NCBI RefSeq assembly: GCF_048403405.1
Contig: NZ_CP183129.1
Reading direction: 5' to 3' (one strand)
Source of the DNA: Escherichia coli
Lineage (GTDB): Bacteria > Pseudomonadota > Gammaproteobacteria > Enterobacterales > Enterobacteriaceae
Length of the DNA: 64,000 nt
Both the position numbers and the translations under genes were made by a program. The notes under the pieces were generated by a model, which saw nothing but the letters and a program-made list of their open reading frames with translations, did no database searches and was not told the origin of the DNA. How positions within the stretch are numbered: position 1 is the stretch's first letter; every line of letters starts with the position of its first letter. Shown piece by piece: positions 13,493 to 19,490 of this stretch.

Positions 13493-13744
13493 TTATTCTT
13501 CTGAAAAAGCAGAAAAGCCAGCTTTTATTCCGATCTCTTTCAATGCCTGTAATGAAGTGACAAACTCACCGTCGTGCAAGATAAATCCGTCCGTCACTCG
13601 GGCATCCACAAAATTAATTAACGCAGCCCCATTTTTTTGCAAACACACAATGCGGTAATGGCTAACAATATTTCCATTTTCAACGCACACAGCATAGAGG
13701 CCATCTTCACAAAAAATTTTACGCAGTTCTTCGATGTTCATCAT
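13493..13744 (-). CDS. Hypothetical small phage protein (83 aa; same position and size as Qin rem)
   Basis: ORF immediately downstream of hok as rem is in Qin; identity not verified. Confidence 0.5.
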   Translation of the reverse strand: MMNIEELRKIFCEDGLYAVCVENGNIVSHYRIVCLQKNGAALINFVDARVTDGFILHDGEFVTSLQALKEIGIKAGFSAFSEE

Positions 13745-13860
13745 CAGAATCCTTCCGGATAATTAGCTCTCCCCTTTAAGGGACCATCCCTCTTATCCCT
13801 GCGCGCTACTTAAGTATTTTTGATTCTATTCCGGCACCGTCCAGAACTTCAAATGCGTTG

Positions 13861-13892
13861 AAAATAAAAACAAAAACCCGCCGAAGCGGGTT
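13861..13892 (-). terminator. Rho-independent terminator at 3' end of hok mRNA
   Basis: AACCCGC-CGAA-GCGGGTT stem followed by long U-rich run on minus strand. Confidence 0.6.
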
Positions 13893-13960
13893 AAGTGCGG
13901 GTGCGTTGAGGATGCCTGCCACATCAGAGGTGGCGAGGGATTTCTCCCTCGCCTGGTCTC

Positions 13961-14116
13961 TTACTCCTCAGGTTCGTAAGCTGTGAAGACAGCGACCTCC
14001 GTCTGGCCGGTTCGGATTCGTACCTCGCAGAGGTCTTTCCTCGTTACCAGTGCCGTCACTATGACGGTTAAACAGATGACGATCAGGGCGATTAACATCG
14101 CCTTTTGCTGCTTCAT
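13961..14116 (-). CDS. Hok-family type I toxin (51 aa)
   Basis: Below ORF-track length cut-off; my translation MKQQKAMLIALIVICLTVIVTALVTRKDLCEVRIRTGQTEVAVFTAYEPEE is the canonical Hok/HokD sequence. Confidence 0.85.
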   Translation of the reverse strand: MKQQKAMLIALIVICLTVIVTALVTRKDLCEVRIRTGQTEVAVFTAYEPEE

Positions 14117-14129
14117 AGCCTGCTTCTCC

Positions 14130-14235
14130 TTGACCTTTCGGTCCGTAAGAGGCTAATCTCTATGTGTCGCATAGATATGGCCTCAGATTAATGTTAAGCG
14201 TCTTGCAGGACGCGTAATGTTAACTGGGGCTTTTC
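14130..14235 (+). ncRNA. Putative Sok-like antisense RNA with its promoter, antisense to hok leader
   Basis: TTGACC-17/18nt-TAATCT promoter on plus strand overlapping hok translation start; short hairpin GCGUC…GACGC downstream; inferred from hok/sok architecture. Confidence 0.3.
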
Positions 14236-14374
14236 TCTATCTGCCTTTTGGTGTTCATGCCTGAGACAGATAGCCTCAAGCACCCGCAGTTATTCTACTT
14301 AACTAAGATTTCCCCGCAAACCGTTTTTGTCCGGCACAGTAAATATCCAACTAAACCAATGGCGTTCGCTGTAT

Positions 14375-14554
14375 TTACCGCCAGTATTCAATGCACATGA
14401 CCGCCATGAACACCCCTAAAAAAAGGGCATTTATATGTCCAAACATTAATATCAAAACATCAATTTTTTCCATATACCTTGCTGTGAAGATGATGGGCAT
14501 ACATGATGCGAACAACCAGAACGCAACAAACAAAAACTGCAATGCGTTTTTCAT
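14375..14554 (-). CDS. Hypothetical small two-helix membrane protein (59 aa)
   Basis: ATG 14554 after GGGGGAA; MKNALQFLFVAFWLFASCMPIIF…LFLGVFMAVMCIEYWR; AT-rich island between hok and nin genes. Confidence 0.45.
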   Translation of the reverse strand: MKNALQFLFVAFWLFASCMPIIFTARYMEKIDVLILMFGHINALFLGVFMAVMCIEYWR

Positions 14555-14674
14555 TATTCCCCCTACAATCAATGTGCAATAACATTTAAACACACCTCAA
14601 TTTGGCCGGACATATAAATATCTAAACCAGAAAAAATCACTTACATAGCGTTACAAACTCTTTAGTCTAAATAT

Positions 14675-15661
14675 TCATCGTAAAACATCCTCCACGCTTA
14701 TCAGTCCATTTCGTTTCAGGTAATCCATCGCCTTCTCCGGTAATTTGCAGTCCGGCTGAGCTTTTTTCAGTTGACTGACCAGTCGTTTAACCCACATTGT
14801 TAATTCGCTAACCTGGTTACCTAGCGCTGGCGACGCTACTGTCTGTTCCAGAACGTCATCAGGTACTACCGGCTCTACTGCCAACTGACTGGCATATTTG
14901 TTAATGGTAACGATAAGCTCTTGCTCGGCCTCATCCAGACAATCACCGATACCTCGCCTGTCACCGTCAAAATCATCGAAATCGGCGCGAATCCTGGCAA
15001 CCTCCCGGATTGCGGACAACACCTCACCAGGAATTACCGGAGAGTTGCCCGATAGTGCATTCTGCTCCAGTGATGCCTTTACAAACCACGCGGCCTGAAC
15101 TATTACGCCATGAATCCAGCGCAAATCAGCATCGCGATCTTTCTTTTTCATCTTTTCGCCACTTAAAGCCTGGCTTATGTGGCTACGTACAAGGTCTTCA
15201 TGTAACACCTTCGCATCCTCAATGGTGAAACCACCAGGCAGGCGAGCCGGGGTTACATGAGGGTTGCCTTCCCCCTGACTCTGAAGCATGGCGGCGCGGT
15301 AGGCATTCCAGCCTCTCACCTCTGCAATAGCGGCAACATCATCGACCGCGTACATTTTAAGAGGGTTAGGCATTGGTTTTTCTTCAGATACTACTGGCAC
15401 TGGAGGGGCGGCATAAACAGGAATAACGTCCGCTTGCTCTTTATTGCTTTCATCCGTTAAAGCCCAGAATAATTTCCCGGCCGGATGTTTGAAAATATAA
15501 GCAACTGGTTCTGCGCTATCAGCTTCGCGCCGCTTCTGTAGCTCTGCTGCCATTGCGCTCACGACTTCAACTGGTGCCCTTGCAGCAAACTCTATGTTGG
15601 TGATAAGCTCATTAAGATATTGCTCGCTGGGATACTGTTTCTTATTGGTAATAGTGGTCAT
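14675..15661 (-). CDS. Hypothetical phage protein (328 aa) sharing N-terminal module with 16025..16432
   Basis: Long ORF; contains PVYAAPPVPVVSEEK also present in upstream paralogue. Confidence 0.7.
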   Translation of the reverse strand: MTTITNKKQYPSEQYLNELITNIEFAARAPVEVVSAMAAELQKRREADSAEPVAYIFKHPAGKLFWALTDESNKEQADVIPVYAAPPVPVVSEEKPMPNPLKMYAVDDVAAIAEVRGWNAYRAAMLQSQGEGNPHVTPARLPGGFTIEDAKVLHEDLVRSHISQALSGEKMKKKDRDADLRWIHGVIVQAAWFVKASLEQNALSGNSPVIPGEVLSAIREVARIRADFDDFDGDRRGIGDCLDEAEQELIVTINKYASQLAVEPVVPDDVLEQTVASPALGNQVSELTMWVKRLVSQLKKAQPDCKLPEKAMDYLKRNGLISVEDVLR

Positions 15662-18824: not shown

Positions 18825-19490
18825 TCAAATAAAACCAGCTGCCTTCCGGCGTTCGTATTCCTGTTTCAGCCGTTCAATTGGCGTTGGCCCTTGCGGGTGT
18901 TTCGCCCCTTCCAGTTGTCGTCGCACTGGCGGAACACTCATCCCGTTACCAACATGCTTTGCCCATTTCGTCAGTTGCCGTTCTGCAAGTCGTTTTAACT
19001 CACCCTGCGTCATCTGGCGCTCAATCCCTCTGGTACGCATTTCGAGGCAGATGTGGTACAGCACAGGCTGAGGCCACGGATATTTGTCGCTTCCGTCATA
19101 TCGCCAGGACTCATCACGCCAGCGGCGGTACTCCTCCATCACAGCATCCACCGTCAGGCCAAATGGATTGGCCCCGCTTTCTGAAATCAGCGCCACAAAC
19201 TCAGCCAGGTCCGGAGGCCATGTTTCACCCGCCCGGCAGCGGTCCATGCACTGGCGGCAGACCTGTCGGATTTGCTGCTCAGTCATCGCGCCAATCTGTG
19301 CAATCCAGAGCTTCGAAGGTGCGGCCCCGTTCTTCTGGGTCCAGCGGTTCGAATAAACCTCCCCCATGAGTTCCCACAGCTTCCAGACCGTTTCCGTCGC
19401 TGATAAATCCGTTTTCACGTTCCCACTGCTCACGTGCTGCCCGAATTTCCTGAACTGCCCGTGATGCGGTGCCACCTGGTGCTGCTGCAT
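18825..19490 (-). CDS. Replication protein P-like (helicase loader); start uncertain
   Basis: …WPPDLAEFVAL…KYPWPQP… resembles lambda P; ORF overlaps 3' end of O by about 210 nt; internal starts at 19370 or 19286 possible. Confidence 0.65.
   Translation of the reverse strand: MQQHQVAPHHGQFRKFGQHVSSGNVKTDLSATETVWKLWELMGEVYSNRWTQKNGAAPSKLWIAQIGAMTEQQIRQVCRQCMDRCRAGETWPPDLAEFVALISESGANPFGLTVDAVMEEYRRWRDESWRYDGSDKYPWPQPVLYHICLEMRTRGIERQMTQGELKRLAERQLTKWAKHVGNGMSVPPVRRQLEGAKHPQGPTPIERLKQEYERRKAAGFI

What the first reader, a model, noticed from the sequence alone, without database searches (positions are those of the whole stretch)
13861..14554. Hok-type toxin locus with candidate Sok promoter, plus adjacent AT-rich small membrane protein
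A canonical 51-aa Hok ORF (missed by the ORF track because it is under 60 aa) lies in the nin region with a terminator downstream and a plus-strand promoter-like element overlapping its translation start, as expected for Sok. Unlike Qin hokD, no relBE genes precede it. Just upstream is a separate AT-rich 59-aa two-helix membrane ORF with a GGGGG RBS and no known function, which could be another toxin or an immunity factor.
Basis: partly seen in the sequence, partly recalled or inferred. Interest (0 to 1): 0.45.

Follow-up and report, generated by a model that had tools for sequence, protein, structure and literature searches.

The report
Intact prophage hok/sok toxin locus
This is an ordinary, already catalogued hok/mok/sok toxin-antitoxin module (toxin identical to E. 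coli HokD) in the late-early region of a lambda-like prophage. It sits next to a real but uncharacterised 59-residue membrane protein gene that does not appear to be functionally tied to it.

Summary
All genes lie on the minus strand.

**Hok locus.** Positions 14116..13961 encode a 51-aa protein 100% identical to K-12 HokD (Pfam HOK_GEF, E 1.2e-23). Upstream lies a complete hok leader: Rfam RF01794 scores 106.7 bits against a gathering score of 59.
- Its 5' tac element (14285-14274) pairs with an fbi element (13911-13899) just before the terminator (13892-13875).
The start near 14166 aligns with the annotated sokW of phage 933W, whose locus has been tested experimentally.
Here it is a 19-codon frame (14172..14113) whose UGA overlaps the hok AUG. 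In 933W it is an in-frame 70-aa extension.
- The window holds no relBE. K-12 keeps only 14 nt upstream of hokD.

The identical 931 bp occurs in many E. coli genomes annotated as hokD, so this part is already known.

**The 59-aa ORF (14554..14375).** It is a real gene. A 44%-identical, equally long paralog exists elsewhere in E. coli, with dN/dS 0.21, no indels, and 0 of 5000 shuffles matching its score. It has no family, RefSeq leaves it unannotated in the genomes inspected, and the paralog has no hok nearby. A toxin or immunity role is therefore unsupported.

The parts
14292..14320 (-). Candidate hok promoter: -35 TTTGCG at 14320..14315, 17-nt spacer, -10 TAGAAT at 14297..14292. The +1 G falls at 14285.
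   Evidence: Read from the sequence. It is conserved with 933W upstream of the hok leader, and the left edge of the shared hok module in phages falls just upstream. It was not flagged by the scan, so this is an inference.
13872..14285 (-). Full-length hok mRNA, about 414 nt (leader, mok, hok, 3' UTR).
   Evidence: The Rfam RF01794 model starts at 14285. The MFE fold is -168.8 kcal/mol with z -8.0 and closes the 5' end on the 3' end.
14274..14285 (-). tac element (GGGUGCUUGAGG) at the 5' end of the hok mRNA.
   Evidence: It pairs with 13899-13911 in both the MFE and centroid structures. Across 42 unique related sequences, all 12 pairs stay Watson-Crick or G-U, apart from one A-C pair in a single sequence.
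14114..14285 (-). hok leader matching the Rfam family 'sok' (RF01794), which models the sense strand up to the hok AUG.
   Evidence: 106.7 bits against a gathering score of 59, E 1.2e-24, model positions 1-157 of 157.
14181..14184 (-). mok Shine-Dalgarno sequence GAGG.
   Evidence: Read from the sequence. It is the same motif as the R1 mok SD described in PMC9841398.
14113..14172 (-). mok leader frame: 19 codons (MRHIEISLLRTERSRRSRL) with a UGA stop at 14115..14113 overlapping the hok AUG (AUGA).
   Evidence: Derived from the sequence. The same ATG starts the annotated 70-aa mokW of 933W, but a -2/+1 indel pattern shifts the frame here. About 100 related loci carry the short form and about 55 the in-frame form.
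14130..14159 (+). Sok promoter: -35 TTGACC at 14130-14135, 18-nt spacer, -10 TAATCT at 14154-14159.
   Evidence: It is homologous to the sokW promoter (TTGCCT, 17 nt, TAACCT) of 933W/Sp5. Mutating the -10 element of that promoter abolished antitoxin activity (PMC8621323). The consensus scan did not flag it.
14166..14236 (+). Sok antisense RNA, about 70 nt: a 13-nt single-stranded 5' tail across the mok start, a long hairpin at 14179-14231, then UUUU at 14232-14235.
   Evidence: The ends were mapped from the annotated sokW of 933W through the alignment. The fold is -31.9 kcal/mol with z -5.7. The transcript itself is inferred.
14126..14131 (-). hok Shine-Dalgarno sequence AAGGAG, preceded by a small hairpin (GACC-GAAA-GGUC).
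   Evidence: Read from the sequence. In 933W the hairpin arms change together, from GACC/GGUC to UGCC/GGCA.
13961..14116 (-). hok coding sequence, 51 aa, identical to HokD.
   Evidence: RefSeq annotates the identical gene as hokD (WP_000813254.1).
13899..13911 (-). fbi (fold-back inhibition) element CCUCAACGCACCC.
   Evidence: It pairs with tac. Three of its positions show C-to-U changes that keep G-U pairing.
13866..13892 (-). Intrinsic terminator of the hok mRNA (stem 13892..13875 plus a T-run).
14375..14554 (-). 59-aa two-helix small membrane protein gene (ORF59), function unknown. Its Shine-Dalgarno-like GGGGG lies at 14563..14559.
   Evidence: Comparison with the paralog gives dN/dS 0.21, no indels, and stop-free reading in this frame only. 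AlphaFold predicts two helices with pLDDT 78.6. It is intact in 118 of 119 loci sampled by DNA pattern.
14330..14668 (-). AT-rich cassette (33-38% G+C) carrying ORF59. It is bounded by the stop codon of the upstream 328-aa gene and by the left edge of the hok module.
   Evidence: Composition. The segment is present at 95% identity or more in 1569 of 5426 complete E. coli genomes.

Best explanation
The region holds two independent neighbours in the nin-type region of a lambda-like E. coli prophage, both read on the minus strand.

**1. A complete hok/mok/sok type I toxin-antitoxin module.**
- A weak promoter (-10 TAGAAT) makes a hok mRNA of about 414 nt.
- The 5' tac element of that mRNA pairs with the 3' fbi element. 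This closed form is neither translated nor bound by Sok.
- Slow 3' trimming removes fbi. The leader then refolds and exposes the mok ribosome-binding site.
- Ribosomes translating the 19-codon mok frame stop at a UGA that overlaps the hok AUG. This opens the hok ribosome-binding site and allows synthesis of the 51-aa Hok, a membrane-depolarising toxin.
- The unstable, roughly 70-nt Sok RNA is made from the opposite strand starting near 14166. It pairs with the mok start region, and RNase III then destroys the duplex.
- When Sok synthesis falls (prophage loss, or induction as shown for hokW-sokW), Hok is made. It either kills the cell or speeds lysis.

**2. ORF59,** a genuine 59-aa inner-membrane helical hairpin carried on its own AT-rich cassette. 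It is most likely an accessory prophage ('moron'-type) membrane protein that acts independently of Hok. Its activity is unknown.

**Shown here:** sequence identity to HokD, the Rfam match, the tac/fbi pairing, the mok frame, homology of the Sok promoter and hairpin, and coding constraint on ORF59.

**Inferred from the family:** mRNA processing, translational coupling, RNase III cleavage, the biological role of the module, and any function of ORF59.
For: - **Hok.** It is 100% identical to K-12 HokD and matches HOK_GEF. The identical DNA is annotated hokD in RefSeq genomes.
- **Leader.** It matches Rfam RF01794 over the whole model, well above the gathering score.
- **tac/fbi.** The pairing is predicted in both the MFE and centroid structures (z -8.0) and is maintained in 42 unique relatives, with only G-U-compatible changes in fbi.
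- **Sok.** Its promoter, start and hairpin are collinear with sokW of 933W at about 91% identity. The RNA folds as a single-stranded tail plus a hairpin followed by a U-run. hokW-sokW has been shown to be a working type I system that depends on RNase III and Hfq and aids phage release (PMC8621323).
- **mok.** In R1, mok must be translated up to the hok start but not beyond it, and 19 mok codons precede hok (PMC9841398). That matches the 19-codon frame here. Its sequence is identical in every short-form locus sampled.
- **HokD toxicity.** The HokD coding sequence was toxic in a recent survey, which also found hok genes enriched in prophages (bioRxiv 10.1101/2025.08.07.668861).
- **ORF59.** Its paralog P0042 is 44% identical, is also 59 aa, and aligns without gaps. 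NG86 dN/dS is 0.21. BLOSUM62 scores 157 in the ORF frame against 62 or less in the other five frames. None of 5000 column shuffles reached the observed score, and only 3 of 5000 left both sequences stop-free.
Against: - No expression data exist for this window. The Sok and hok promoters both deviate from consensus, and the scan flagged neither.
- Chromosomal hok loci tested earlier did not mediate post-segregational killing (cited).
- Close relatives of this locus are repeatedly disrupted by insertion sequences or by a relBE-carrying insertion. The module can evidently be lost without harm.
- Within the 95%-or-more-identical population, ORF59 shows 9 nonsynonymous and 0 synonymous variable sites, whereas hok, rem and the neighbouring 92-aa ORF give pN/pS of 0.26-0.48.
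- ORF59 has no recognisable promoter.
- RefSeq leaves ORF59 unannotated in the genomes inspected.
- No family, structure or defence-system match gives ORF59 a function.
Confidence: 0.85

Rival explanations
1. The hok locus is an inert relic. Like the K-12 chromosomal hok loci, it is carried along by the prophage but no longer expresses toxin or provides stabilisation, lysis help or defence.
For: - Chromosomal hokA, hokB and hokC loci did not mediate post-segregational killing in earlier work (summarised).
- Relatives of this locus are interrupted by an IS plus flxA-ydfV-relBE block at the hok start, or by an IS3-family element upstream of the promoter.
- The hok -35 and the Sok -10 are weak by consensus.
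Against: - Every known regulatory element is intact and the long-range pairing is maintained.
- The mok frame is kept open up to the hok AUG in all sampled loci of this haplotype.
- hok shows pN/pS of 0.48 rather than neutral drift.
- The closest studied relative, hokW-sokW, is active.
Confidence: 0.15
2. The 59-aa ORF is a chance open frame in an AT-rich spacer. Its hydrophobicity would then be a by-product of T-rich codons, and it makes no protein.
For: - Nine nonsynonymous and no synonymous variable sites were seen among about 200 close relatives.
- Frameshifted or truncated versions exist in protein databases.
- There is no Pfam, PHROG or NCBIfam match.
- PGAP does not call it.
- No promoter was found.
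Against: - A 59%-identical DNA paralog keeps the same start, stop and length with no indel, whereas the flanks need 26 gap columns to align.
- dN/dS is 0.21, and only this frame is stop-free in both copies. None of 5000 shuffles reached the observed protein similarity.
- The T7 run inside the ORF is intact in 118 of 119 loci sampled by DNA pattern.
- A Shine-Dalgarno-like AGGG(G/A) is conserved before the ATG in both lineages.
Confidence: 0.12
3. The 59-aa protein is functionally coupled to Hok, either as a second membrane toxin under its own antisense control or as an immunity factor that protects the lysogen from Hok.
For: - In every sampled locus of this lineage the ORF sits about 90 nt upstream of the hok mRNA start.
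- It is a small membrane hairpin, as many toxins and immunity proteins are.
Against: - The linkage is explained by recent common ancestry, since the segment is 95% identical or more everywhere.
- The paralog lineage lies in a Rac-site prophage remnant, between an integrase fragment and ABC-3 (sit-type) transporter gene fragments. The contig checked had no hok or sok match.
- Only 2 of 79 phage records with the hok module cover most of the query including the ORF (a third covers the ORF but not hok). About 1068 of 5408 E. coli records do.
- No antisense RNA family, promoter or terminator was detected around the ORF.
- There is no PADLOC or toxin-family match.
Confidence: 0.1

Closest known systems
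hokW-mokW-sokW of Stx phages 933W and Sp5 (E. coli O157:H7)
   Same: The module is collinear at about 91% nucleotide identity, from the hok promoter to the fbi element. It shares the leader, the Sok promoter position, the Sok hairpin and a 51-aa toxin, and it is also carried by a prophage. Activity has been shown experimentally, including dependence on RNase III and Hfq and an effect on phage release.
   Different: - mokW is a 70-aa in-frame extension of HokW. Here a -2/+1 indel pattern gives a 19-codon mok that ends on the hok AUG.
- The same 1-nt indel changes the Sok -35 from TTGCCT to TTGACC and the spacer from 17 to 18 nt.
- The Hok C-terminus differs (TAYEPEE here, VDYESEK there).
- The sequence after fbi differs.
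- In 933W the module is not in the nin region.
hokD (relF) of the K-12 Qin cryptic prophage
   Same: The Hok protein is identical, and the 3' UTR, fbi, terminator and downstream rem-ydfU-Q gene order are the same.
   Different: K-12 keeps only 14 nt upstream of the hokD AUG. The promoter, tac, mok and sok are replaced by relBE. Related loci show the intermediate state: an intact leader, then a 3.3-kb block of IS-flxA-ydfV-relBE, then hokD. The window holds the uninterrupted form.
hok/mok/sok (parB) of plasmid R1
   Same: It has the same architecture and presumably the same logic: tac/fbi closure, a mok SD GAGG, 19 mok codons before hok, a hairpin just before the hok SD, and a Sok promoter overlapping the hok ribosome-binding region.
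   Different: HokW, the close relative of this toxin, is only 44% identical to R1 Hok. R1 mok continues for 70 codons overlapping hok. R1 is a plasmid stabilisation system, whereas this module is prophage-borne.
E. coli 83972 HMPREF0358_2809 (P0042), the only divergent relative of ORF59
   Same: It is 59 aa, 44% identical and aligns without gaps. It shares the motifs SC-PII-T, MFGH-NAL, GVF and IE-WR, sits in an AT-rich unannotated segment, and lies in a prophage-derived context.
   Different: It lies at the Rac attachment region, between an integrase fragment and ABC-3 (sit-type) transporter gene fragments. The contig checked had no hok or sok match. It is equally uncharacterised.

Membership tests
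Hok/Gef toxin family (Pfam PF01848) | The protein matches the family profile above the curated cut-off. | tested here: met
   82.9 bits against a cut-off of 22, E 1.2e-23. PHROG 251 matches at E 2.8e-33. The protein is 100% identical to K-12 HokD.
Hok/Gef toxin family (Pfam PF01848) | The peptide is toxic to the cell membrane when expressed. | not testable with these tools
   The literature reports HokD and HokW as toxic on induction.
hok/mok/sok type I toxin-antitoxin locus (hok mRNA family) | The leader has the conserved sequence and structure of hok mRNAs. | tested here: met
   Rfam RF01794 scores 106.7 bits against a gathering score of 59, covering model positions 1-157 of 157 and ending at the hok AUG.
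hok/mok/sok type I toxin-antitoxin locus (hok mRNA family) | Long-range tac (5' end) to fbi (3' end) pairing closes the full-length mRNA. | tested here: met
   Twelve pairs between 14285-14274 and 13899-13911 appear in both the MFE and centroid folds. They are kept in 42 unique relatives apart from one A-C pair in a single sequence, with only C-to-U (G-U compatible) changes in fbi. There is no double-sided covariation, so the support is conservation plus thermodynamics.
hok/mok/sok type I toxin-antitoxin locus (hok mRNA family) | A mok leader frame with its own SD is translated at least up to the hok start. | tested here: met
   GAGG at 14184..14181, ATG at 14172, 19 codons, and a UGA overlapping the hok AUG. 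This is a variant, because it ends at the hok start rather than overlapping hok. That is consistent with the R1 mutational data.
hok/mok/sok type I toxin-antitoxin locus (hok mRNA family) | A cis-antisense Sok gene (promoter, 5' tail across the mok start, terminator hairpin) is present. | tested here: met
   The match is at sequence level only. It is collinear with the annotated sokW and has a hairpin plus U-run with z -5.7. The promoter is weak by consensus and was not flagged by the scan.
hok/mok/sok type I toxin-antitoxin locus (hok mRNA family) | Sok RNA is made and represses Hok synthesis. | not testable with these tools
   This has been shown for hokW-sokW, which is about 91% identical. 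It is not shown for this allele.
Protein-coding gene (status of ORF59) | The frame is preserved and under purifying selection between divergent homologs. | tested here: met
   Compared with P0042: 44% identity, no gaps, dN/dS 0.21, and only this frame open in both copies. None of 5000 shuffles reached the observed score. Within the close population the signal is absent, with 0 synonymous and 9 nonsynonymous sites.
Type I toxin (ORF59 as a second toxin) | An overlapping or adjacent antisense RNA gene controls the small hydrophobic ORF. | tested here: inconclusive
   No Rfam match and no promoter or terminator was found on the opposite strand at 14375-14680. The same scan also missed the Sok promoter, so its absence here is weak evidence.
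Hok immunity or partner protein (ORF59) | It co-occurs with hok across lineages. | tested here: not met
   The paralog contig checked had no hok or sok match. Most hok modules in phages and genomes lack ORF59.

The most novel reading that the evidence does not exclude
Two readings remain open.

1. ORF59 and its paralog may define an overlooked family of two-helix inner-membrane proteins of E. coli prophages. The two DNA segments are present in about 29% and 19% of complete genomes, and RefSeq leaves them unannotated in the genomes inspected. The protein could have a real phenotype, such as superinfection exclusion, modulation of lysis, or membrane toxicity.

2. The short-mok haplotype may be a natural demonstration that mok only needs to be read up to the hok AUG. 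In that haplotype a single-base indel both resets the mok frame and retunes the Sok -35 element.
Probability: 0.3. Interest if true: 0.4.

Novelty: already known. Interest (0 to 1): 0.17.

Why it matters
For the hok/sok part, little is new. Identical DNA is annotated as hokD in many E. coli genomes, the sister locus hokW-sokW has been dissected experimentally, and the enrichment of hok in prophages has been reported.

The window is still a clean example of the uninterrupted ancestor of the K-12 relBE-hokD arrangement. It also carries a mok frame that stops exactly on the hok start codon, which agrees with recent mutational data from plasmid R1.

The 59-aa gene is a modest lead. It is a constrained small membrane protein, widespread in E. 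coli, that automated RefSeq annotation skips and that has no assigned function.

Tried and rejected
- **Consensus promoter scan.** It found neither the Sok nor the hok promoter. I rejected it as a test, because the homologous and experimentally validated sokW promoter has an equally weak -10 element.
- **Family searches for ORF59.** Pfam, PHROGs, NCBIfam and PADLOC gave nothing.
- **PDB profile search.** No hit.
- **Foldseek of the AlphaFold hairpin against viral structures.** No hit at E of 0.001 or below, which is uninformative for a two-helix fold.
- **Scan of GTDB species representatives.** The only hit was a contig labelled Collinsella that carries E. coli-type prophage DNA.
- **The plus-strand 63-aa ORF (14391-14582), called 'hornerin' in one phage record.** Rejected, because the paralog has two stops in that frame and similarity there is low.
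- **Weak Rfam hits (isrK, rsmX, ceN48).** All are below their gathering scores and lie on the hok 3' hairpins or leader. I treated them as chance.
- **An apparent 'endosymbiont-like' context for the distant ORF59 homologs.** This probably reflects fragmented gene calls in low-quality assemblies. The paralog is also found in an ordinary E. coli chromosomal context.
- **Frameshifted ORF59 variants in the protein database.** They are not representative. An unbiased DNA-pattern sample found the T7 run intact in 118 of 119 loci.
Full report
**Context.** The genes around the finding are all read on the minus strand. From high to low coordinates the order is:
- a lambda-P-like replication gene (18825-19490);
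- DUF1627, Ead/Ea22-like and HNH genes;
- a 328-aa ORF (15661-14675);
- the 59-aa ORF, then hok;
- a Rem homolog (13744-13493, 93% identical to K-12 Rem);
- a 92-aa ORF;
- a DUF968/YdfU-type gene (13146-12088);
- RusA (12087-11719) and antiterminator Q (11732-11037).

The 931 bp from 13750 to 14680 are 100% identical in at least 25 complete E. coli chromosomes, and 757 records have a best match at 99% identity or more. RefSeq annotates hokD there.

**The Hok gene and its mRNA.** The ORF at 14116..13961 encodes MKQQKAMLIALIVICLTVIVTALVTRKDLCEVRIRTGQTEVAVFTAYEPEE. It matches Pfam HOK_GEF (E 1.2e-23) and PHROG 251, and is identical to K-12 HokD.

Rfam family RF01794 is named 'sok' but models the sense-strand hok leader up to the AUG. 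It matches 14285..14114 over its full length at 106.7 bits, against a gathering score of 59.

Folding the 414-nt transcript from 14285 to 13872 gives -168.8 kcal/mol (z -8.0). In both the MFE and centroid structures, the first 12 nt (GGGUGCUUGAGG, tac) pair with CCUCAACGCACCC at 13911-13899 (fbi), which lies immediately upstream of the terminator at 13892-13875. In 42 unique related sequences these 12 pairs stay intact apart from one A-C pair in a single sequence, and the fbi changes seen are C-to-U substitutions that keep G-U pairing. That amounts to conservation rather than true covariation.

A small hairpin just before the hok Shine-Dalgarno sequence does change on both arms between haplotypes, from GACC/GGUC to UGCC/GGCA. 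A likely hok promoter (-10 TAGAAT at 14297..14292) sits seven bases before the modelled 5' end. This is read from the sequence and is inferred.

**Sok.** Phage 933W annotates mokW, hokW and a 71-nt sokW. The window aligns to it from the promoter to fbi, at about 91% identity.

The promoter is TTGACC (14130-14135), 18 nt, TAATCT (14154-14159). In 933W it is TTGCCT, 17 nt, TAACCT. The simple scan missed both, because the -10 matches only 3 of 6 positions. However, Takada et al. showed that mutating the -10 element of the sokW promoter abolishes protection. They also showed that hokW-sokW is a type I system dependent on RNase III and Hfq, and that it increases Sp5 phage release after mitomycin C (PMC8621323).

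The predicted Sok RNA has a 13-nt single-stranded 5' tail covering the mok start codon, a long hairpin (14179-14231) and then UUUU (z -5.7).

The ATG at 14172, with GAGG at 14184..14181, is the same start as mokW. The window differs from 933W by a 2-nt deletion just after the ATG and a 1-nt insertion at 14133. As a result the frame runs for 19 codons (MRHIEISLLRTERSRRSRL) and stops at a UGA overlapping the hok AUG (AUGA).

In 933W the frame continues in phase into hok as a 70-aa protein. Both haplotypes are common: about 100 sampled loci carry the short form and about 55 the in-frame form. These counts include some contigs fetched twice.

Saturation mutagenesis of R1 hok/sok showed that mok must be translated up to the hok start but not beyond, and that 19 mok codons precede hok (PMC9841398). 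The short form should therefore still couple translation. The same single-base difference also changes the Sok -35 element and spacer.

**Relation to K-12 hokD.** The window has no relB or relE. K-12 shares only 14 nt upstream of the hokD AUG, and everything further upstream is relE.

Five related viral contigs show an intermediate arrangement:
- ORF59, the hok promoter, the leader, mok and sok are all intact;
- homology then stops at ...GGAGAAGCAGGCTAT;
- a 3.3-kb block follows, carrying an IS transposase, flxA, a ydfV-like gene, relB and relE;
- the repeat AGGAGAAGCAGGCTATG and hokD then resume.

The window is therefore the uninterrupted form of the locus that is rearranged in Qin.

**The 59-aa ORF.** MKNALQFLFVAFWLFASCMPIIFTARYMEKIDVLILMFGHINALFLGVFMAVMCIEYWR is encoded at 14554..14375, with GGGGG four bases before the ATG. 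The segment is 33-38% G+C. It has no Pfam, PHROG, NCBIfam, PADLOC or PDB match.

The 351-bp segment occurs in 1569 of 5426 complete E. coli genomes at 95% identity or more. PGAP leaves the ORF unannotated in the genomes inspected.

*Evidence within the close population.* This is ambiguous. There are 9 nonsynonymous and no synonymous variable sites. For comparison, pN/pS is 0.48 for hok, 0.29 for rem and 0.26 for the 92-aa ORF. That pattern fits neutrality (probability about 0.16) better than constraint. The frame itself is intact in 118 of 119 loci sampled by a DNA pattern.

*Evidence from a divergent relative.* This is decisive. An exhaustive HMMER search found one divergent relative. It is typified by E. 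coli 83972 HMPREF0358_2809 (P0042), which is also 59 aa and 44% identical, and aligns without gaps.
- The DNA is 59% identical with no indel across the ORF, while the flanks need 26 gap columns to align.
- Only the ORF frame is stop-free in both copies.
- BLOSUM62 similarity is 157 in that frame and 62 or less in the other five.
- NG86 dN/dS is 0.21.
- None of 5000 column shuffles reaches the observed score.

The antisense 63-aa ORF, which one phage record annotates, fails this test. AlphaFold predicts two helices, 2-27 and 30-58, with pLDDT 78.6.

I conclude that ORF59 is a real small membrane protein gene.

*Relation to hok.* The paralog lies between an integrase fragment next to ttcA and ABC-3 (sit-type) transporter gene fragments, followed by uspF and ompN. 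This is the Rac attachment region. The contig checked had no hok or sok match, and the paralog segment is present in 1045 genomes.

Conversely, only 2 of 79 phage records with the hok module cover most of the query including ORF59. A third, PhiR42_1, covers ORF59 and the leader but not hok. The constant adjacency in this lineage therefore reflects recent common descent rather than a functional pairing.

The function of ORF59 remains unknown. My best guess is an accessory prophage membrane protein. The toxin and immunity ideas have no positive support.

**Verdict.** The hok/sok interpretation is correct but incomplete, and it describes something already known and annotated. The small ORF is real and uncharacterised, and it is probably unrelated to Hok.

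Noticed in passing
L087 8075-11690 (same contigs as L078, L080-L083); compare window 14116-14131: Related prophages keep ORF59 and the whole hok leader, mok and sok. They then carry a 3.3-kb insertion (IS transposase, flxA, a ydfV-like gene, relB, relE) exactly at the hok start, with GGAGAAGCAGGCTAT repeated at both junctions, followed by hokD. This looks like the intermediate that led to the K-12 Qin relBE-hokD arrangement. It leaves an orphan Sok gene 3.3 kb from its toxin.
   Followed up: partly
L029 3194-4456 (equivalent to window ~14362-14365): A 1263-bp IS3-family element (orfA/orfB, IS600-like) is inserted between the ORF59 stop and the hok promoter, with a 4-bp repeat at the junctions. 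This echoes the IS-inactivated hok loci of K-12.
   Followed up: partly
window 14133 and 14168-14170: The mok region exists as two haplotypes. One is a 19-codon frame ending on the hok AUG. The other is a 70-aa in-frame Mok-Hok fusion frame. The single-base indel at 14133 also switches the Sok -35 element between TTGACC and TTGCCT and the spacer between 18 and 17 nt.
   Followed up: yes
L209 6001-6180 (E. coli, region ttcA - integrase fragment - ORF - ABC-3 (sit-type) fragments - uspF - ompN): A 44%-identical, 59-aa paralog of ORF59 sits in a prophage remnant at the Rac attachment region. Its DNA segment is present in 1045 of 5426 complete E. coli genomes, and RefSeq leaves it unannotated in the records listed.
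   Followed up: partly
window 14375-14554: Among about 200 close relatives, all 9 variable sites in ORF59 change the amino acid (A16V, M28I, I31V, M37I, H40Y, A43V, V48G, V52G, M53T) and none is synonymous. The deep comparison with the paralog nevertheless shows purifying selection. The cause could be relaxed or diversifying selection, or simply a small sample.
   Followed up: partly
window 13975-13978 (minus strand): Hok codon 47 is UAC followed by G (UACG). A recent preprint states that hokD mRNA, like hokB, undergoes A-to-I editing by TadA that recodes a tyrosine to cysteine. The motif is present here.
   Followed up: no
window 14655-14668 (minus strand) and L206 ~715-730: Immediately after the stop codon of the upstream gene there is a short palindrome, TTTAG-A-CTAAA. 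The ORF59 paralog locus has CTTCAG-T-CTGAAG at the aligned place, so both arms change together. Its meaning is unknown.
   Followed up: no
window 13823-13852 (minus strand): A promoter-like site (TTGAAG, 18 nt, TAGAAT) lies between the hok terminator and the rem start at 13744. It may drive rem independently.
   Followed up: no
L208 (contig JAIJJM010000167.1): A contig labelled as a Collinsella sp. metagenome-assembled genome carries the E. coli-type ORF59-hok segment at 95% identity. Binning contamination is the likely cause.
   Followed up: no
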